Below are positions 1,936 through 57,540 of a stretch of 64,000 nucleotides of DNA, one piece after another (the stretch's first letter is position 1; every line of letters begins with the position of its first letter). Origin of the DNA: the human T2T-CHM13v2.0 reference genome, Homo sapiens; assembly GCA_009914755.4 (NCBI GenBank), contig CP086569.2:11168001-11232000 (forward strand). The letters run 5' to 3'. The translations under genes and the position numbers were made by a program. The notes under the pieces are model-generated. The model saw nothing but the letters and a program-made list of their open reading frames with translations, was not told the DNA's origin and did no database searches.

Positions 1936-4900
1936 GCCAACTTTCATTGCATTGCATTCTATTCCATTTCATTGAATTGCATTGCAAGTCATTACATTCC
2001 ATTGAACGGAATTGCCTTGCATTGCATACCATTTCATTCCACTGCACTCCATTTCATTCCATTCCACTCCACTCCACTCCACTACATTCCATTCCCTTTA
2101 ATTACAATCCACTCCACTCCACTCCATTCCACTCCAATGCACTCCACTGCACTCCCCTCCATTCTGTTCAATTCCTTTCCATTTCTTTCCATTCCACTGA
2201 GTTCCACTCCATTCCATTCCATCCCTTTTCAATCCACTGCACTCCACTCAGTTCCACTCCATTACACTCCATTCCATGCCATTGATCTCCACTCCACTCC
2301 ACTCCTTCCCACTCCAACTTACTCCACTCCAGATCATTCCATTCAATTCCCTTCCACTCCAATCCACTACACTCCATTCCATTCAATTCCACTCCATTCC
2401 AGTTCATTCCACCAAATTACACTCCATTCCACTTCATTTCACTTCAATCCACTCCACTCCATTCCGTTCCCCTCCATTCCATGCCATTGCTCTCCACTGA
2501 ACTCCACTCCACTCCACTCCTTTCCACTCCAACCCACTCCAGTCCAGTCAATTCCACTCAATTCCATTCCACTCCACTCCATTCTACTTCATTCCATTCC
2601 AATCCTTTTCCCTCCACTCCATTTCATTCCACTCCACTCCATTCCATTCCACTCCTCTCCATTCCATTCCTGTGCACTCCACTCCACTCCACTCCATTCC
2701 ATTCCATTCCACTCCACTCCACACCACTCCATTCCATTCGATTACATTCCTTTCCACTCCACTCCACTGCACTCCATCCTAGTCCACTCTACTCCATTCA
2801 ATTCCATTCCATTCCATTCCACTGCACTCCACTCAACACCACTCAATTCCTCTACATTCCACTCCTCCATTCCATTCCATTCCCTTCCATTCAATTCCCC
2901 TCCACTCCACTCCAATGCACACCACTCCATACGACTCCACTCCATTCCAATCCAGTCCATTCCATTCTATTCCACTCCATTCCATTCCACTCCACCCAAT
3001 TCCATTCCAGTCCACTCCACCCCCCTCAACTACACTCCATTCCATTCCATTCCACTACACACCCCTCCACTCCATTCCATTAATTCCATTTCCCTCCACT
3101 ACTCTCCAGTCCATTGCTTTCCATTCCATTCCACTCCATTCCACTCCACTCCCCTCCAATCCATTCCACTCCATTCTTTTCCACTCCACTGCACTCCACA
3201 CTAGTCAACTCCACTCCACTCAATTCCATTCCATTGCATTCCACTGCAGTCTACTCAATTCCTCTCCACTGCACTCCTCCAATCCATTCCATTCCTTTCC
3301 ATTGCATTCCACTCCACTGCACTCCGATGCACAGCATGCCATTCGACTCCGCTTCACTCCAATGCAGTCCATTCCGTTCCATTCCATTCCACTCCATTCT
3401 ATTCCACTCCACCCAATTCCATTCCATTCCACTCCACTCCACTCCACTCAACTCCACTCCATTCTATTCCTTTCCAGTCCACTCCACACCACTCCATTCC
3501 ATTCCTTCCATTCCACTACACTCCCCTCCACTACATTCCATTCCACTCCATTCCCCTCTACTCCACTACACTCCATTGCATTCCATTTCATTCCACTCCA
3601 ATCCACTCCACTCCCCTCCACTCCTCTCCATTATTTTCAACTCCACTCCATTTCATTCCACTCAATGCTATTCCGTTTCACTCTGCTCTATTCCATTTCA
3701 TTCCATTCCATTCTATTCCATTCCATTCCATTCCATTCTTCTCCATTCCATTCCACTCCATTCCATTCCACTCCACTCCATTTCATTCCACTCCACTCCA
3801 CTCCCCTCCTATCCATTATACAATACTCCACGCCACTGTAAACCATTTCACTCCATTCCATTCGACTGCACTCATTCCATTCCACTTCACTCCATTCCAC
3901 TCCGTTCCACTCCACTCCAGTCCATTCCATTCCATTCCATTCCACTCCGTTCCACTCCTCTGCATTCCACTCCTCTCCATTCCTCTCCACTCCATTCCAC
4001 TGAACTCCACTTCCTTCCACTCCAGTACACTCCAATCTACTTCAGTCCACTCTACTCCATTCCAGTCCTCTCCACTCCACTCCATTCCATTCCTATCCAT
4101 TACACTGCACTGTGGTCCACTCCAATCTACTCCAATCCATTCCGTTCCGTTTTCTTCTGATCTGTTCCATTCTGCTCTGTTCCACTTAACTCCACTCCAC
4201 TCCACTGCATTCCATTACATCCGATTACATTCCACTCCATTAAACTCATCTCCACTCTACTACTCTCCACTCCACTCCATTCCACTCTATCGCATTCATT
4301 TCTGTTCCATTCCACTGCACTCCATTCCACCCCACATCCCTCTTCTTCATTCCATTCCATTCCAGTCCACACCATTCCATTCCTTTCCATTCCATTCCAT
4401 TCCATTCCACTCCACACCTCTCCACTAAACTCCACTCCATTCTATTCCATTCCATTCCATTCCATTACAATCCACTCCACTCCACTAATTCCCACTCCAA
4501 TCCACTCCACTCCATTCCATTCTGTTTCATTAAATTCCAGTCCATCCCATTCCAATCTACTCCATTCCATTCCATTCCACTCCAATCGACTCCACTACAC
4601 TCCATTCCACTACATTCCAATACATTGCATGCCATTCCAGTCAACTCCAATCCAACCCAGTCCACTCCAGTCCACTCCACGATATTCCATTCCACCCCAC
4701 TGCACTCCACTCCATTCCAATTCACTCCATTGCTATCCTTTCAATTCCACTCCATTCCATTCCACTCCCCTCCATAATATTCCACTCTGCTCCATTCCAT
4801 TCCAGTGCACTCCACTTCATTCCATTCCACTCCACTCCACACCACTCCATTCCATTCCACTCCTTTCGTTTCCACTCACCTGCACTCCACTCCACACTAG

Positions 4901-4966
4901 TCAAATCCACTCCACTTCTCCATTCCATTGCAATCCTTTCCATTCCATTCCACTCCACTCTACTCC

Positions 4967-5036
4967 AATGAAATGGAATAGAGGGGAATCGAATGGAATG
5001 GAGTGGAATGGAATTCCACTGAATGGAATGGAAAGT
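4967..5036 (-). repeat. Short strand-switch (inverted satellite segment): GGAAT-strand pentamers on the + strand
   Basis: AATGAAATGGAATAGAGGGGAATCGAATGGAATGGAGTGGAATGGAATTCCACTGAATGGAATGGAAAG lies inside an otherwise uniformly ATTCC-oriented array. It creates a GGAATTCC palindromic junction near 5010. Confidence 0.8.
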
Positions 5037-5929
5037 CAGCTTTCCATAGCTTTTCAGTCTATTCCATTTCCTTCCATTCCATTCCACTGCATTCCATTCC
5101 ATGCCATTCCATTCCATTCTATTCCATTCCATTGCACTACACTCCACAACACTTCAATCCACTCCACTCCACTCCATTCCACTCCACTCCAGTCCACTCC
5201 ACAATGCTCCACTCCACTCCACTCCATTCCACTCTACACCACTCCACTCCATTCTATTCCACTCCACTCCACGCCACGCCAGTCCACTCCACTCCATTCC
5301 ACTCTACTCCTATCCCTTTCATTCTATTCCACTCGACTCCACTCCACTCCACTCGAATCCATTCCACTCCACTCCACTCCATTCCTTTCCATTCTATTCC
5401 ACTCCAATCCACTCCATTCCACTCCTTTCCATTTCATTCTATTCAATTCCATTCCATTCAACTCCACTCCAATCCAGTACATTCCACTGCACTCCAATTT
5501 ACTCCATTCCATTCCATTCCACTGCATTCCACTCCATTTCACTCCACTCCATTCCACTCTACTGCAATCCATTCCATTCCATTCCAATCCAATCTATTCC
5601 ATTGCACTCCACTCCATTCCACTCCTCTCCACTCCACTCAACTCCATTCCATTCCACTCAACTCCATTCCACTCCACTCCATTCCGTTCCACTACACTCC
5701 ATTTCATTCCACTGCAATCCATTCCATTCCATTCCACTCCATTCCCCTCCATCCCATTCCTTTCAATTCCATTCCTTTCCACTGCACTCCACTCCACTAA
5801 ACTCCATTCCATTGCTTTCCGTTCTATTCCAGTCCATTCCAATCTATTCCACTCCATTCCATTCCACTCCACTCCTTTCCATTTCATTTCATTCCATTCC
5901 ATTGCAATCCCTTACATTCCACTCCATGC

Positions 5930-5997
5930 TTTCAAAAGGATCTCCTTCTGTCACACAGGCTGTAGCACAATAGCACAATCTCAGCACACATTTCTTT
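5930..5997 (-). mobile_element. Alu 3'-end-derived spacer, subtype D
   Basis: GGATCTCCTTCTGTCACACAGGCTGTAGCACAATAGCACAATCTCAGCACACATTTCTTTTCACC. Confidence 0.65.
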
Positions 5998-9180: not shown

Positions 9181-9260
9181 CCTTTCTTTCCACAGGATGT
9201 CTCTCTGTCACAAACGCTGGAGTGCAGTGGCATCATCTCCGCTCACATTTCTTTTCACCA
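9181..9260 (-). mobile_element. Alu 3'-end-derived spacer, subtype B
   Basis: CCTTTCTTTCCACAGGATGTCTCTCTGTCACAAACGCTGGAGTGCAGTGGCATCATCTCCGCTCACATTTCTTTTCACC. Confidence 0.7.
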
Positions 9261-11460
9261 TTCCATTGCATTCCCTTCCATCCCATTCCATTCAACTCTA
9301 TTACACTCCACTCCAATCCATTCCATTCCAATCCACTCCATCCCATTCCTTTTGACTCAATTCTACTCCACTCCACAACACTCTTCTCCACACCACTGCA
9401 CACCACTCCATTCCATTCCATTCCTTTCAATTACACTCCACTCCACAACACTCCTTTCCATTCCAATCCATTCCTTTCCACTCCATTCCATTCCACTCCA
9501 TTCCACTGCACTCCATTCCACTCCACTGCATACCACTCCACTCCACACTACCCCACTCCTCTCCATTACACTCCACTAGGCTCCACTCCACTCCAGTCCA
9601 TTCCACTCCACTCCACTCCACTACAGTCCACTGCATTTTACTACACTATACTACACTCCAATCCATTCCATTACAGTCCACTCCATTCCTTTCCACTCCT
9701 CTCCATTCCAATCCACTCCATGCCATTCCACTCCACTCTACTCCATTCCGTTCCACTCCACTCCATTCCACTCCACTTCACTCCATGCCTATTTACTCCT
9801 TTCCTCTCCAATCCATTCCATTCTATTTCCCTTCACTCCACTCCACTCCATTCCACTCCAATTCACTCCACTAAACTCCATTCCAGTCCACTACACTCCA
9901 TTCCAGTGCACACCACTCCACTCCAGTCCATTCTATTCCACTCCTCTCCATTCCTTTCCATGCAACTCCATTCTACACCACTGCACTCCAATCCAATCCA
10001 TTCCAGTCCACTCCACTACACTCCATTAATTCTACTCCAGTCCACTCCACTCCATTCGATTCCATTCCACTCCTCTCCACTCCCTTCCGTTCCATTCTAC
10101 TCCACCCCATTCCATTCCGTTACACACCATTCCACTCCACTCTATTCCACTCCACTCGACTCCACTTCACTCCACTCCATTCCATTCCATTCCATTCCTT
10201 TCCACTCTACTCCATTCCACACCACTCCACTCCATTACACTCCACTGCACTGTATTTCATTGCACTCCACTCCATTCCAATCCCCTCCATTCCATTCTGT
10301 TCCAATCGACTCCATTACACTGCACTCCACTCTATTCCACTCCACTCCACTCCAATCAAATCTATTCCAATCCTTTCCACTCCACTACATTCCACTCCAC
10401 TGCACTCCATTCCATACCATTCCATTCCTTTGCACTCCACTCCACTACACTGCACTACAATACTCTCCATTCCAGTCCACTCCACTCCATTCCACTCCAC
10501 TCCACTCCATTCCAATTCACTCCACCCCATTCCATTCCTCTCCACTCTATTCCATTTCATTTCTCTCCATTGCATTCCATTCCATTCCATTCCATTCCAT
10601 TCCATTCCACTTCATTCCACTCCATTCCATTCCACTCCACTCCATTCCAGTCCACTTCTTTCCAATCCACTCCACTCCACTCCACTCTAATCCATTTCAT
10701 TCCAATACACTCCAATCCACTCCACTCCCCTCCACTTGATTCCATTCTACTCCACTCCACCCTACTAAACTCCATTCCACTCCACTCCACTCCAATCCAC
10801 TCCTTTGCATTCCACTCCACTCCAATCCACTCTACTCCATTCCACTCTGCTCCATTTCAATCCAATCCATTCCAGTCCATTCCATTCCATTCCACTCTTC
10901 GCCATTCCATTCCACTCCATGCCATTCTGCTCCACTCCACTCCATTCCATTCCACTCCACTCCATTTCTCTCAACTGCACTCCACTCTACACCTATCCAT
11001 TTCATTCCACTCCACTCCACTGCATTCCATTCCACTCCTCTGCACTCCACTCCATTTCACTCCAGTACACTCCATTCCACTCCACTCCACTCTGCTTCAC
11101 TCCACTCAGCTCCATTCCTTGCCACTCCACTCTACTCCATTCCACTCCAATCTACTCCATTCCACTTCACTCTACTCCATTCCACTCCACTGCACTCCAT
11201 TTCATTCCAATCCCCTCCATTCCAGTCCACTCCACTCCATTCCATTCCAGTCCACTACACTCCACTCTATTCCACTCCTCAGTACTCCAATTCAATCTAC
11301 TCCACTCAATTCCACTCCAATTTATCCCAGTCCAGTCCACTCCGTTCCATTCCATTCCATTCCATTGCACTCCACTCCACTACACTACACTACGCTACAC
11401 TACACTACTCTCCATTATAGTCCATTCCACTCCATTTCAGTCGACTCCACTCCACTCCAC

Positions 11461-11700
11461 TCCATTCTATTCCACTCCATTCCATTCCATTCCACTCCAC
11501 CCTATGCCATTCCATTCCTCTCCATTCCATACTCTTCCATTCCATTACATTCAACTCCATTCCACTCCACTCCACTCCACTCCATTCTATTCCACTCCAT
11601 TCCATTCCATTCCACTCCACCCTATGCCATTCCACTCCTCTCCATTCCATACTCTTCCATTCCATTACATTCAACTCCATTCCACTCCACTCCACTCCAT
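11461..11700 (+). repeat. Near-exact tandem duplication, 2 x 120 bp
   Basis: 11461-11580 and 11581-11700 are identical apart from 1-2 mismatches. The overlapping track ORFs repeat the same 40-aa block twice. Confidence 0.9.
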
Positions 11701-11889
11701 TCCATTCCATTACTGTCCACTCCACTCCACTCCATTCCATTTCATTCCACTCCATTCCACTCCACTCCACACCCTTCCATTCCATTCTACTCCAATCCAT
11801 TCCACTCCATTCTATTCCATTCCACTCCATTCCACTCCACTGCACTCCCCTCACTTCCAGGCCATTCCATTCCACTCCATTCCATTCCA

Positions 11890-11970
11890 TTGCTTTCTTT
11901 CCACAGGATCTCTCTCTGTCAAAAGGGCTGGAGTGCAGTTGCACAGTATCAGCTCTCATTTCTTTTCACC
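11890..11970 (-). mobile_element. Alu 3'-end-derived spacer, subtype B
   Basis: B-type signature read directly. Confidence 0.7.
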
Positions 11971-12230: not shown

Positions 12231-13583
12231 GCATTGCATTGCTTTTCACACCATTGCATTCCTTTGCATTGGAATGCATTGCATTGCATTCCATTCCATT
12301 CCACTCCATTCTATTCTATTCAATTCCATTCCACTCCATTCCATTAAATTCAACTCCACTCCACTCCACTAAACTCCACTCCACTCAATTCCATTCCATT
12401 GGTTTACCTTCCATTGCACTCCACTCCATTCCACTCCATTGCTCTCGACTCCAATTCACTGCACTCCATTCCAATCCATTCCACTCCTTTCTATTCCATT
12501 GCACTCGGATCCACTCCAATCCACTCCACTCCATTCCATTCCATTGCACTCCATTCCATCCATTCCACTCCGCTCCACTGCAACTCATTTCTCTCCAGTC
12601 CACTCCACTGCGTTGCATTCCACTCCAGTCCACTTCACTCCACTCCATTCCATTCCATTCCATTCCAATGCACTCCATTCCATTACATTCCACTTCACTC
12701 AATTCCATTCCATTCCATTCCATTCCAATGCACTCCATTCCATTAAATTCCACGCCACTCCACTTCACTACCCTCCACTCCATTCCATTTCATTCCATTG
12801 CAATCAAATCCACCCCACTCCATTCCACTCCATTGCTCTCCACTGCACTCCACTCCATTCCATTCCATTCCATTCCATTCCATTCCATTCCATTCCATTC
12901 CATTCCATTCCCCTCCATTCAACTCCATTCCATTTGATTCCACTCGAATCCACTCCACTCCACTCCACTACATTCCACTCCATTGCGCTACACTCCATTC
13001 CATTCCACTCCTCTCCACTCCACTCCAACCCATTCCACTCCAGTACACTCCACTGCATTCCATTTCACTCCACTCCACTCCATTCCACCACTCCACCCCA
13101 ATCCACTTTATTCCATTTGACTGCACTCCATTCCACTGCAACCCACTCCATTCCATTCCATTCCACTGCACTCCATTTCACTCCAATCCACTGCACTCAA
13201 CTCCATTCCACTCCACTCCACTCCCTTCCACTCCACTCCACTCAATTCCATTCCACTCCACTCCATTCCATTCAACTCCATTTCATTCCACTCCACTCCA
13301 CTCCACTAAATTCCACTGCATTCTATTCTACTCCAGTCAAATCTATTCCATTCTATTCCACTCCATTCCATTCCACTCCACTCCACTCCATTCCATTCCA
13401 CTCCATTCTATTTCACTTCATTCCATTCCAGTTCATTCCATTGCAGTCCACTCCACTCGCCTCCACTCCACTCACTCAATTCCACACCACTCTTCTCCAT
13501 TCCATTCCACTCCTCTCCCCTCCACTCTACTACACTCCACTCCACCCCACTTCATTCCATTCCGCTCCATTCCATTCCATTCC

Positions 13584-39126: not shown

Positions 39127-39210
39127 TCATTTATTTTGACTGGATCTCACTCTGTCACCCAGACTGAAGTGCAGTGGCAAAATCTTAGCTCACATTTCAT
39201 TTCACCATTC
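39127..39210 (-). mobile_element. Alu 3'-end-derived spacer, subtype C2
   Basis: TTTATTTTGACTGGATCTCACTCTGTCACCCAGACTGAAGTGCAGTGGCAAAATCTTAGCTCACATTTCATTTCACC. Confidence 0.7.
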
Positions 39211-41062
39211 CATTCCATGCAATTACAGTCCATTCCAATACATTCCATTCCTTTCCATTCCATCACACTCCACTCCACGCCACTCCATTTCAGTCCACTA
39301 TGATACATTGGACTCCAAACATTCCATTCCACTCCATGCCCTTCCATTCCATTTCATTCCACTTCACTCCACAGCACTCCACTCCACTCAATTCAAGTCC
39401 ACTCTACTTCACTCCACTCCACTCCGTTCCAATCCATTCCACACCACTCCTTTGCATTCCACTCTACTCCATACCATTCCACTCCATTCCACTGCACTCC
39501 ACTACATTCCTTTCGACTCCATTTTATTCCATTCCATTCCATTCATTTCCATTCCATTCCATTCCACTCTGTTCCATTCCATTCCATTCCGTTCCAATCC
39601 ATTCCATTCCATACCATCCCATTGCACTCCATTCCACTCCATTCCATTCCATTCAACTACATTCCACGCCACTCTATTCCCTCCCATAGCATTCCATTCC
39701 ATTCCACTCCACCTCACTCCATTCCACTCCACTCCACTCCATTCTACTCCATTCCACTCCACTCCACTCCACTCCATACTATTCCTCTCCACTCCACTCC
39801 ATTCCACTCGATTCCGCTCCATTCCTCTCCACTCCACTCCATTACACTCCATTCTACTCCACTCCACTCCATTCCATTCCATTCCATTCCATTCCACTAC
39901 TCTCCATTCCATTACACTCCACTCTATTCCATTCCATTCCACTCCGTTCAACTCCATTCTATTCCATTCCTTTCCATTCCACTCCACTCCAATCCACTCG
40001 ATACCACTCCACTCCATTCCATACCATTCCACTTCATTCAACTCCATTACACTCAACTCCATTCGACTCCACTGCAATCCATTCCATTCCATTCCCTTCC
40101 AATCCACTCTATTCCATTCCACTCCACTCCATTCCACTCCACTCCTCTCCATTCCACTCCACTCCTCTCCATTCCACTCCACTCCAGTCAACTCCATTCC
40201 ACTCCACTCAAATCCATTCCACTCCCCTCAACTCCATTCCACTCCACTCTCTTCCATTTCACTCCAATCCATTCCATTATGTTCTACTCCAACCTACTCT
40301 ATTCCATTCCATTTCATTCCATTCCACTCCCCGCCACTGCACTCATTTCCATTTCATTCCATTCCACTCCATTCCACTCCACGCCTCTCCACTTCTCTCC
40401 ACTCCATTCAATTCCATTCCATTGCATTCCACTCCTTTCCACTCCACTCCATTCCACTTTACTCCATTGCATTCTGTTCCACTCCACTCCATTCCATTCC
40501 ATTCCACTGCAACCCATTCCATTCCTCTCCATTCTTTTCCACTCCAGTCCATTCCACTCACCTACATTTAACTCCATTCCACTCCATTCCACTCCACTAC
40601 ACTCCTCTTCACTCCTCTCCATTCCATTTTTCTCCTTTCCTTTCCAATCCACCCCATTCCATTCCATTCCACTCCACTCCATTCCAGTCCACTTTTTTCC
40701 ACTCCACTCCACTACATTCCGTTCCACTCCAGTCTACTCCAGTACACTCCACTCCACTCCATGTCACTCAACTACACTATTTTATATCCAATTCCATTTC
40801 ACTCTATTCCACTCCTCTCCCTTCCACTGCCCTTCACTCCACTCCATTAAACTACATCCTGTTCCATTCCCCTCCATTCCAATGCACTCCACTTCTCCCC
40901 ACTCCACTCCACTTCATTCCTTTTCATTCCACCCCATTACATTCCTCTCCATTGCATTACAATCCACTTCAGTCCTCTCCACTCCACTCCAGTCCACTCC
41001 TTTCATTCCATTCCGTTCCATTCCATTCCATCCCATACATTCCACTCTATTCCATTCCATTC

Positions 41063-41145
41063 CTTTCTTTAGAAAGTATCTCACCCTGTCACACAGCCTG
41101 GATTTCAGTGGCACAATCTCAGATCCCATTTCATTTCACCATTCC
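41063..41145 (-). mobile_element. Alu 3'-end-derived spacer, subtype C3
   Basis: C3-type signature (variant). Confidence 0.6.
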
Positions 41146-46320: not shown

Positions 46321-46415
46321 TTTCTTTCGACGGGATATCACGGTGTCACTGAGGCTGGAGTGCAGTGGCACAATCTCAGCTCTCATTACATGTCAACTTT
46401 CAATTGCATTGCATT
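46321..46415 (-). mobile_element. Alu 3'-end-derived spacer, subtype A
   Basis: A-type signature. Confidence 0.7.
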
Positions 46416-50035: not shown

Positions 50036-50661
50036 ATTCAATTGCATTCCATGGAATTCCATGGCATTCCATTCCATTGCATTCCATTCCATTCCATTTC
50101 ATCCCATTCCAATCCATTAGATTCCACTCCATTCCACTCAACTCCACTCCACTACACTACATTCCATTACATCTGATTCCATTCCACTCCATTGTAATCC
50201 TCTCCAATCCACTGCACTCCACTCCAATCCATTCCACTCTATCCCATTCCATTATGCTCCAATCCACTGCCCTCCACTCCACACCACTCCAATCCACTTC
50301 ATCCCATTCCATTCCATCCCATTCCATTCTTCTCCATTCCACTCCCCTCCACTCCACTCTGTTCCACTATATTCCTTTCCACTCCACTCCATTCCACGCC
50401 ACTCCATTTCACTCCACTGCACTCCACTGCATTCCACTCCACTGCACTCCACTCTACTCCTTTCCACTGCACTCCATTCTATCCCACCTCCACTCCACTC
50501 CATTCCACTTCACTTCAATCCACTCTGTTTGAATCCATTCTATTCCACTCCAATCGACTCCACTCCAATCCACTCCACTCCATTCCACTCCACTCCACTC
50601 CCTTCCACTCCACTCCACTCCACTCCACTCCACTTCCTTCCATTCCATTCCACTCCATTCC

Positions 50662-57425: not shown

Positions 57426-57540
57426 CATTCCATTCCATTGCGTTCCATTCCACTGCACTCCAATCCACTCCACTGAATTCCACTCCATTCCACCAAAATT
57501 AATTCCATTTCATGGAATTCCAATCCCTTCCATTCCACTC

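What the first reader, a model, noticed from the sequence alone, without database searches (positions are those of the whole stretch)
4967..5036. Only strand-switch in the window: ~70 bp inverted satellite segment with a GGAATTCC palindromic junction
The + strand briefly reads GGAAT-type pentamers (AATGGAATGGAGTGGAATGGAATTCCACTGAATGGAATGG). It contains an HSat2-like TCGAATGG. The flanks on both sides stay ATTCC-oriented. This small inversion creates an inverted repeat capable of hairpin or cruciform formation. It may mark an ancient breakpoint or a patch left by repair.
Basis: seen in the sequence. Interest (0 to 1): 0.55.

Follow-up and report, generated by a model that had tools for sequence, protein, structure and literature searches.

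The report
Small inverted patch in pentamer satellite
A 70-base stretch of a long, old (CATTC)n-type satellite array lies back to front, which is most likely a harmless scar of a replication or repair error of a kind already known in such arrays.

Summary
The window is 64 kb of diverged (ATTCC/ACTCC)n satellite, C-rich on the + strand throughout. Only 4967-5036 reads as 13 G-type pentamers. All 8 + strand matches to GGAATGGAAT (≤1 mismatch) lie there, against 3,659 on the - strand. Flipping exactly 4967-5036 restores normal satellite likelihood. The other ~130 G-rich spots are antisense Alu 3'-end fragments built into the array, not inversions.

Two details are wrong. GGAATTCC lies inside the patch and is not a junction; the same octamer occurs twice in purely forward context. 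TCGAATGG is the reverse complement of a variant that occurs 33 times in the forward array, so it is not an HSat2 marker.

The reverse complement of the patch has no close donor anywhere (best 85%, typical for this array). The hairpins at both junctions are no stronger than those made by simulated random inversions. One rare motif (TTCAGT) mirrored at the right junction hints weakly at fold-back copying.

The region has by far the strongest single-strand folding potential in the window, but the arms are imperfect.

Best reading: a real, functionless micro-rearrangement scar, probably from template switching. Strand switches in HSat3 arrays are published. Low interest.

The parts
4967..5036 (-). 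Inverted satellite patch: 70 bp, 13 pentamer slots, that reads as GGAAT/GGAGT-type on the + strand and as ordinary ATTCC/ACTCC-type on the - strand.
   Evidence: Sequence. The orientation scan scores 66.5 against a next best of 11.5. The maximum-likelihood flip boundaries are 4967-5036. All + strand GGAATGGAAT-like matches lie here.
4954..4987 (.). Left junction quasi-palindrome: TCCaCTCTAcTCCA [ATGAAA] TGGAaTAGAGgGGA, with 12 of 14 positions paired and a 6-nt loop.
   Evidence: DNA fold of -7.8 kcal/mol. 77% of 600 simulated in-place inversions give a left junction at least as stable.
5018..5058 (.). Right junction quasi-palindrome. It has a perfect 8-bp stem, ATGGAAAG (5028-5035) with CTTTCCAT (5040-5047), a 4-nt loop TCAG (5036-5039), and an outer 6-bp stem, ACTGAA (5018-5023) with TTCAGT (5053-5058).
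   Evidence: DNA fold of -10.2 kcal/mol, z -4.76. 62% of simulated inversions are at least as stable. A rare 6-mer mirrored across a junction occurs in only 0.6-0.9% of 3,000 simulations (post hoc).
5009..5018 (.). TGGAATTCCA, a perfect 10-bp palindrome inside the patch. The pentamer slot TCCAC (5015-5019) is the only C-type unit in the patch.
   Evidence: Sequence. The same GGAATTCC occurs at 50053 and 57514 in purely forward context. Re-flipping 5013-5020 improves the forward likelihood only slightly, from -8.57 to -8.28.
4989..4996 (.). It is the reverse complement of the array's own CCATTCGA variant.
   Evidence: CCATTCGA occurs 33 times on the + strand and TCGAATGG once. The HSat2-type longer motifs I tried from memory have no match.
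5037..5060 (+). Non-canonical stretch just right of the patch (CAGCTTTCCATAGCTTTTCAGTCT). It holds two of the window's six AGCTTT. It may be error-prone fill-in at the junction or simply a diverged satellite variant.
   Evidence: k-mer counts. TCAGCT also occurs as a plain satellite variant at 11106, 26309 and 52232, so the origin is undecided.

Best explanation
A 70-bp piece of the satellite itself sits in reverse orientation inside an old, non-homogenised (CATTC)n-derived array that carries interspersed antisense Alu 3'-end fragments.

I read it as a real, selectively neutral scar of a single local replication or repair accident. The most likely accident is a short template switch, that is, fold-back or microhomology-primed synthesis on the opposite strand at a stalled fork or break, followed by a switch back. 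The result replaced or inverted about 70 bp and left a few non-canonical bases at the right junction.

It has no function of its own. Its only consequence is that it gives an otherwise G-free strand something to pair with, which creates a local imperfect inverted repeat.

Shown: the orientation flip, its uniqueness in 64 kb, its satellite origin, and its folding potential.
Inferred: the mechanism and the neutrality.

I put about 0.93 on 'real inverted satellite patch with no function' and about 0.5 on template switching as the way it arose.
For: - Orientation flip: searches show a clean, in-register flip bounded at 4967 and 5036.
- Satellite origin: flipping it back returns the 6-mer likelihood from -10.2 to -7.95, with background at -7.52±0.55.
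- Ordinary member of this array: the reverse complement matches the array at 83-85% identity.
- Signs of untidy synthesis rather than a clean cut and paste:
  - the pentamer register changes from 2 to 1 (mod 5) across the patch;
  - about 24 non-canonical bases with duplicated AGCTTT follow the right junction;
  - the rare 6-mer TTCAGT/ACTGAA is mirrored about the right junction next to a perfect 8-bp stem with a 4-nt loop, which happens in 0.6-0.9% of simulated inversions.
- Literature:
  - short template switches and microinversions of tens of bases are an established mutation class (PMC5453318, PMC8755829);
  - HSat3 arrays are known to hold many inversion breakpoints (bioRxiv 10.1101/2021.07.12.452052);
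Against: - No donor was found. Neither flank nor any place in the window matches the reverse complement better than background. The local best is 77% against 80±5% for controls. Mirror-anchored extension from the right junction falls at the 48th-80th percentile of 118 other CTTTCCAT sites.
- The junction hairpins are no stronger than in random simulated inversions.
- The TTCAGT result was noticed first and tested afterwards, so its p-value is optimistic.
- Register shifts also occur elsewhere nearby, for example 4 to 2 at about 4910-4922.
- An in-place flip of already diverged sequence would also leave no donor.
- No ancestral or allelic state is available.
Confidence: 0.5

Rival explanations
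1. A clean in-place inversion. Two nearby breaks, or one break processed on both sides, released about 70 bp that was re-ligated backwards by end joining, with no copying from a template.
For: - No donor exists anywhere in the window, as expected if the segment was simply turned round.
- Flipping it back gives near-normal satellite.
- The junction hairpins are what any flip in this satellite produces.
Against: - The pentamer register is not conserved across the patch: 2 becomes 1.
- The right junction carries non-canonical bases and a mirrored rare motif.
- From general knowledge, a free 70-bp fragment is more likely to be lost than re-ligated, and published microinversions are attributed to replication-based mechanisms (PMC8755829, PMC5453318).
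Confidence: 0.28
2. An imported fragment. A piece of the same satellite family from a distant part of the array, or from another chromosome, was captured at a break and inserted backwards. This includes the case of a reverse-transcribed satellite transcript.
For: - The patch is ATTCC-rich while its left flank is ACTCC-rich.
- The best matches to its reverse complement are distant, at 22.5 kb and 54.6 kb, rather than local.
- The register shifts across it.
Against: - Those distant matches are only 84-85% and are typical for any 70-mer.
- The right flank is just as ATTCC-rich as the patch.
- There is no target-site duplication, no poly-A, and no other insertion signature at the junctions.
Confidence: 0.12
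3. An assembly or sequencing artefact, such as a chimeric or fold-back read incorporated into the consensus.
For: Satellite arrays are hard to assemble, and no read-level data can be examined here.
Against: - The patch is flanked by the same orientation on both sides within 70 bp, so it would need two artefactual junctions in one read.
- From general knowledge, fold-back artefacts give exact reverse complements of adjacent sequence. Here the local best is 77% and the global best 85%.
- The patch carries its own private variants (AGAGG, CGAAT, TCCAC).
Confidence: 0.05
4. Not inverted satellite at all, but a degenerate copy of the Alu-derived unit. That unit is the other source of G-rich spots in the window.
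For: - The unit's core GGAGTGCAGTGG resembles GGAGTGGAATGG.
- TGGAGTG and GTCA[AG]CTTTCCAT are 29 nt apart in both the patch and 'type B' units, by eye.
- TCAGCT at 5036 lies mostly (73 of 78) inside Alu-like units.
Against: - An nhmmer profile of 86 units does not align the unit body to the patch on the + strand. Only the pentamer flanks of the model align, and they do so on the minus strand.
- The 29 intervening bases match at about chance level, 10 of 29 by eye.
- The other four TCAGCT outside units are plain satellite variants.
- The patch keeps a perfect 5-bp register.
Confidence: 0.02

Closest known systems
Inversion breakpoints (strand switches) inside human HSat3 and other pericentromeric satellite arrays (Altemose et al., bioRxiv 10.1101/2021.07.12.452052; Altemose et al. 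2014, PMC4022460)
   Same: Both are orientation flips within an array derived from (CATTC)n. The T2T centromere paper reports over 200 inversion breakpoints in the chr9 HSat3B5 array. [quoted passage not shown]
   Different: The text I read describes strand annotation of whole arrays and does not give the sizes of those inverted segments. Here the inverted segment is only 70 bp, in an array that otherwise keeps one orientation for 64 kb. Species, chromosome and subfamily of this window are not known.
Short template-switch mutations and microinversions (Löytynoja & Goldman 2017, PMC5453318; Potapova, Kondrashov & Mirkin 2022, PMC8755829)
   Same: These are local events of tens of bases that leave an inverted stretch and can create hairpin-forming inverted repeats. 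They are attributed to replication template switching or to microhomology-mediated break-induced replication.
   Different: - The 59 'definite' human-chimpanzee microinversions are 17-33 nt, are exact reverse complements of the orthologue, and are flanked by perfect or near-perfect inverted repeats.
- Here the stretch is 70 nt and no orthologue is available.
- No donor is detectable.
- In a satellite almost free of G on one strand, pre-existing flanking inverted repeats are hardly possible.
HSat3 arrays intermingled with Alu fragments on the Y and acrocentric chromosomes (T2T-Y paper, bioRxiv 10.1101/2022.12.01.518724)
   Same: The host array is pentameric CATTC-type satellite with interspersed Alu fragments and no local homogenisation. 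This matches that paper's description. The window holds 133 antisense Alu 3'-end fragments, and its segments are only about 72-73% identical to one another.
   Different: Identity with those human arrays could not be tested, because no primate genome is available in the tools. The classical satellite-3 decamer CAACCCGA(G/A)T, recalled from memory, is absent from the window.
Palindrome or cruciform-prone sites such as long AT-rich palindromes at translocation breakpoints
   Same: It is an inverted repeat with a short spacer, and it has far more single-strand folding potential than its surroundings.
   Different: Those sites have near-perfect arms of hundreds of bases. Here the arms are about 77% complementary and the perfect stems are at most 8 bp. 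No instability is shown.

Membership tests
(CATTC)n-derived pentameric satellite (HSat2/HSat3 superfamily) | Array built from diverged CATTC/ATTCC pentamers with strong strand asymmetry | tested here: met
   TRF finds period 5 over 2-63954. There are 3,168 ATTCC and 2,659 ACTCC on the + strand against 13 GGAAT. GC skew is -0.65 to -0.90 in every kb.
Classical HSat3 (satellite 3 proper) | Interspersed CAACCCGA(G/A)T-type decamer among the pentamers (feature recalled from memory) | tested here: not met
   CAACCCGA has 0 matches on either strand. Only the partial CAACCC occurs, 18 times. The array is therefore 'HSat3-like' by pentamer only, and no subfamily is assigned.
HSat2 | Longer diverged unit rich in CATTCGATTCCATTCGATGAT-type motifs (recalled from memory) | tested here: not met
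   ATTCGATGAT, TCGATTCCATTCGAT and related strings have 0 matches. The single TCGAATGG in the patch is the reverse complement of a common local variant, CCATTCGA, which occurs 33 times.
HSat3 with intermingled Alu fragments (Y/acrocentric type, T2T-Y paper) | Alu fragments interspersed in pentameric satellite, without local homogenisation | tested here: met
   There are 133 copies of a ~73-bp fragment, all in one orientation. Copies are 71-93% identical to the seed copy. Orthology to the human arrays was not tested.
Short template-switch event (four-point model) | The changed stretch is the reverse complement of a nearby template sequence | tested here: inconclusive
   The local best is 77%, against 80±5% for forward controls. 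Anchored mirror extension is not better than at 118 control sites. The only positive sign is the mirrored rare TTCAGT, seen in 0.6-0.9% of simulations, post hoc.
Short template-switch event (four-point model) | An ancestral or sister sequence shows the pre-event state | not testable with these tools
   No primate genomes or reads are available. Exact-match scans of metagenome, prokaryote-genome and viral collections returned only two chance bacterial hits.
Definite microinversion (Potapova et al. criteria) | Flanked by perfect or near-perfect inverted repeats, with an exact reverse complement of the orthologue | tested here: inconclusive
   Each junction is itself a quasi-palindrome, but any flip in this satellite gives that. 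I saw only a 3-nt ACT...AGT pairing of the two ends, by eye. The orthologue test is not possible.
Cruciform-forming palindrome | Long, near-perfect arms with a short spacer | tested here: not met
   The longest arms are 73 nt at 77% complementarity with a 33-nt spacer. The perfect stems are 8 bp and 4 bp.

The most novel reading that the evidence does not exclude
The patch records one multi-step template-switching event. In that event the polymerase changed strand at least three times within 70 bp: G-type from 4967 to 5012, an 8-nt forward-type ATTCCACT at 5013-5020, then G-type again to 5036. The switches would have pivoted on the array's rare palindromic sites, of which TGGAATTCCA is one. 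The isolated GGAATTCC flips at 50053 and 57514 would be minimal versions of the same process. If so, palindromic variant pentamers would be recurrent seeds of strand switching in CATTC satellites, and could explain how such arrays acquire the many inversion breakpoints reported for them.
Probability: 0.15. Interest if true: 0.3.

Novelty: already known. Interest (0 to 1): 0.1.

Why it matters
It matters little by itself. It is one example, at the small end of the size range, of the strand switches already reported in HSat-type arrays.

Practical value:
1. A 70-bp flip makes a unique, mappable marker inside an otherwise monotonous array.
2. It is the one place in 64 kb where the strand, or a transcript of it, can fold back on itself. 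It should therefore be kept in mind when interpreting non-B DNA predictions, polymerase stalling, or double-stranded RNA signals from satellite transcripts.

A survey of many such patches across complete genomes could show whether palindromic variant pentamers seed inversions.

Tried and rejected
1. Paralogous copy of the region within the window. BLAST of 4400-5600 against the window gave nothing above 73.5% identity. TRF found no long period. The patch therefore cannot be compared with sister repeats.
2. Local donor or fold-back copy. Ungapped scans, gapped scans and a mirror-anchored alignment showed no excess over controls.
3. Junction palindromes as a mechanistic signature. They are no stronger than in 600 simulated in-place inversions.
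4. Patch as a degenerate Alu-derived unit, or as sitting in one. The nhmmer profile and the TCAGCT test did not support this. A possible G-depleted relic of such a unit lies just upstream, at about 4860-4925, and is not the patch itself.
5. Nested 8-nt re-inversion at 5013-5020. It gives only a marginal gain in likelihood and is left open.
6. The same junction elsewhere. Exact-pattern scans of metagenome contigs (2 scans), prokaryote genome contigs (1) and viral contigs (2) found nothing relevant. The two 21-mer hits lie in ordinary bacterial sequence with no satellite context. None of these collections is a primate genome, so this says little.
7. My first mirror alignment was centred on the wrong coordinates. 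I redid it with the correct centre, 5037.5.

Full report
**What the window is.** All 64 kb are a diverged pentameric satellite. Tandem Repeats Finder reports one period-5 array over 2-63954 at 65% matches. The + strand carries 3,168 ATTCC and 2,659 ACTCC but only 13 GGAAT. GC skew is -0.65 to -0.90 in every 1-kb bin.

Any two stretches are only about 72-73% identical, and no long-period repeat is seen. The array is therefore old and not homogenised.

Built into it are 133 copies, all in one orientation, of a ~73-bp element. Its consensus is TTTCTTTCGACAGGATCTCACTCTGTCACCCAGGCTGGAGTGCAGTGGCACAATCTCAGCTCAC. That points to a primate.

The T2T-Y paper describes HSat3 arrays 'intermingled with Alu fragments' on the Y and acrocentric chromosomes, without local homogenisation. 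This fits the window, but I could not test identity. The classical satellite-3 decamer, recalled from memory, is absent.

**Checking the observation.** The quoted sequence is there.
- 4967-5036 parses as 13 pentamer slots in one register, and 12 of them are G-type.
- All 8 + strand matches to GGAATGGAAT with at most one mismatch lie at 4970-5034. The - strand has 3,659.
- An orientation log-odds scan scores the segment at 66.5. The next best is 11.5, and the runners-up examined are almost all the GGAGTGCAGTGG core of the Alu-derived element rather than inverted satellite.
- When every pair of flip boundaries is tried, 4967-5036 gives the best forward likelihood, tied with 4968-5035.
- Flipping it back raises the mean 6-mer log-likelihood of 4900-5100 from -10.2 to -7.95, against a background of -7.52±0.55.

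**Corrections to the description.**
- GGAATTCC (5010-5017) lies inside the patch. G-type pentamers go on for another 19 bases, and the true junctions are at about 4966/4967 and 5036-5039.
- The same octamer occurs at 50053 and 57514 in purely forward context. There, flipping the 7-mer ATGGAAT to ATTCCAT restores canonical likelihood. It is thus a recurrent micro-variant and not the mark of this inversion. It also shows that the patch is the only long strand switch, but not the only flip.
- TCGAATGG (4989) is the reverse complement of CCATTCGA, which occurs 33 times in the forward array. The HSat2-type longer motifs I tried are absent.

**Where the patch came from.** Its reverse complement is an ordinary member of this array.
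- The best ungapped match anywhere is 83%, against 86±4% for forward control 70-mers.
- The best match within ±400 bp is 77%, against 80±5% for controls.
- By BLAST, every top hit is on the minus strand, at 84-85%, scattered at 13.9-55 kb. The best score sits at the 19th percentile of controls.

There is thus no recognisable donor, near or far. Two histories are compatible with this: an in-place flip of already diverged sequence, at any age, or an old copying event whose arms have since decayed to background.

**The junctions.** Both are quasi-palindromes.
- Left junction: 12 of 14 positions pair around a 6-nt loop, at -7.8 kcal/mol.
- Right junction: a perfect 8-bp stem, ATGGAAAG with CTTTCCAT, around TCAG, plus an outer ACTGAA/TTCAGT stem, at -10.2 kcal/mol.

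This looked like a fold-back signature, so I tested it. In 600 simulated in-place inversions of random 71-bp stretches of this satellite, 77% of left junctions and 62% of right junctions were at least as stable. Extending the mirror symmetry from the right junction is no better than at 118 other CTTTCCAT sites. The palindromes therefore follow automatically from flipping a 5-bp repeat.

One thing goes beyond that. The outer stem pairs a rare motif: TTCAGT occurs 27 times in 64 kb. Such a mirrored rare 6-mer appears in only 0.6-0.9% of 3,000 simulations. I noticed it first and tested it afterwards, so this is only a hint.

Three observations lean towards error-prone templated synthesis and away from a clean cut and re-ligation:
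- the mirrored rare motif;
- the ~24 non-canonical bases after the patch, which hold two of the window's six AGCTTT;
- the change of pentamer register from 2 to 1 across the patch.

Register shifts also occur nearby without any inversion, so the case is weak.

**Folding potential.** The 200-nt windows that contain the patch fold at up to -45.3 kcal/mol as single-stranded DNA. The window-wide mean is -4.4±4.9, and the best unrelated site, an Alu-derived unit, reaches -23.1. For 4880-5125 the value is -40.7 against -19.7±3.5 for shuffles, z -6.05.

The arms are only about 77% complementary and the perfect stems are at most 8 bp. Cruciform extrusion from duplex DNA is unlikely by general knowledge of cruciform requirements, and nothing here shows instability.

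**Alternatives examined.**
- Degenerate Alu-derived unit: rejected. A profile of 86 units aligns only its pentamer flanks to the patch, and on the minus strand. TCAGCT at the right junction also occurs as a plain satellite variant elsewhere.
- Artefact: unlikely. It would need two junctions within 70 bp. Fold-back artefacts also give exact reverse complements of neighbouring sequence, which is not what is seen. Only reads can settle this.
- Imported fragment: cannot be excluded, but it has no positive support.

**Comparison with what is known.**
- The T2T centromere study annotated strand along whole arrays and found over 200 inversion breakpoints in the chr9 HSat3B5 array. It also noted that HSat3 units often include fragments of ancient transposable elements.
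- Altemose et al. 2014 set aside 1,738 HSat2,3 reads that matched both strands as possible inversion breakpoints.
- Short template switches and microinversions of tens of bases are an established mutation class.

The present patch is a small example of these known things. It fails, or cannot be put to, the strict tests for a 'definite' microinversion or template switch, because no ancestral state is available.

**Verdict.** It is best explained as a real, functionless rearrangement scar in an old satellite, probably made by template switching. I give about 0.93 to 'real and neutral' and about 0.5 to that mechanism. It belongs to a kind already known, and its interest is low.

Noticed in passing
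window, 133 sites from 1620 to 63648 (for example 46323-46395): A ~73-bp antisense Alu 3'-end fragment, poly-T included and with most CpG sites decayed, is part of the array. It occurs 133 times, always in the same orientation, mostly 180-530 bp apart. It has two tail flavours: ...CACATTTCATTTCACCATTCC and ...CACATTACATGTCAACTTTCCATT. These fragments account for nearly all other G-rich spots in the window.
   Followed up: partly
window 1940-5949, 9258-11895, 39205-41065: Stretches of 2-4 kb contain no Alu-derived fragment, whereas from about 19 kb to 37 kb the fragments are dense. The inverted patch lies in the first Alu-free stretch. The array therefore has domains of different unit structure.
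   Followed up: no
window ~4860-4925: A profile of the Alu-containing unit aligns weakly here (CTCCTTTCGTTTCCACTCACCTGCACTCC...ACTAGTCAAATCCAC...). It looks like a relic unit whose G-rich core has been lost or overwritten by pentamers. It ends about 40 bp left of the inverted patch.
   Followed up: partly
window 50051-50057, 57512-57518, 12268-12275: These are isolated single-pentamer flips in forward context: ATGGAAT (giving GGAATTCC) twice, and ATTGGAAT once. Turning these 7-8 bases round restores canonical satellite likelihood, so they look like micro-inversions or 2-3-base multinucleotide changes at sites with self-complementary AT flanks.
   Followed up: partly
window 11106, 26309, 52232: A recurrent satellite variant block, CA[CT]TCAGCTCCATTC, at two of the three sites followed by ACTGCA. 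It accounts for three of the four other TCAGCT found outside Alu-derived units.
   Followed up: no
window ~4910-4922 and 4962-5061: The pentamer register (start of ATTCC/ACTCC, mod 5) shifts from 4 to 2 about 50 bp left of the patch and from 2 to 1 across it. It then stays at 1 for at least 235 bp.
   Followed up: partly
L001 7679-7699 and L002 477-497: The 21-mer GGAAAGTCAGCTTTCCATAGC from the right junction has one exact match in a metagenome contig and one in a Bacteroidales MAG. Both lie in ordinary non-repetitive bacterial sequence and are chance matches.
   Followed up: yes
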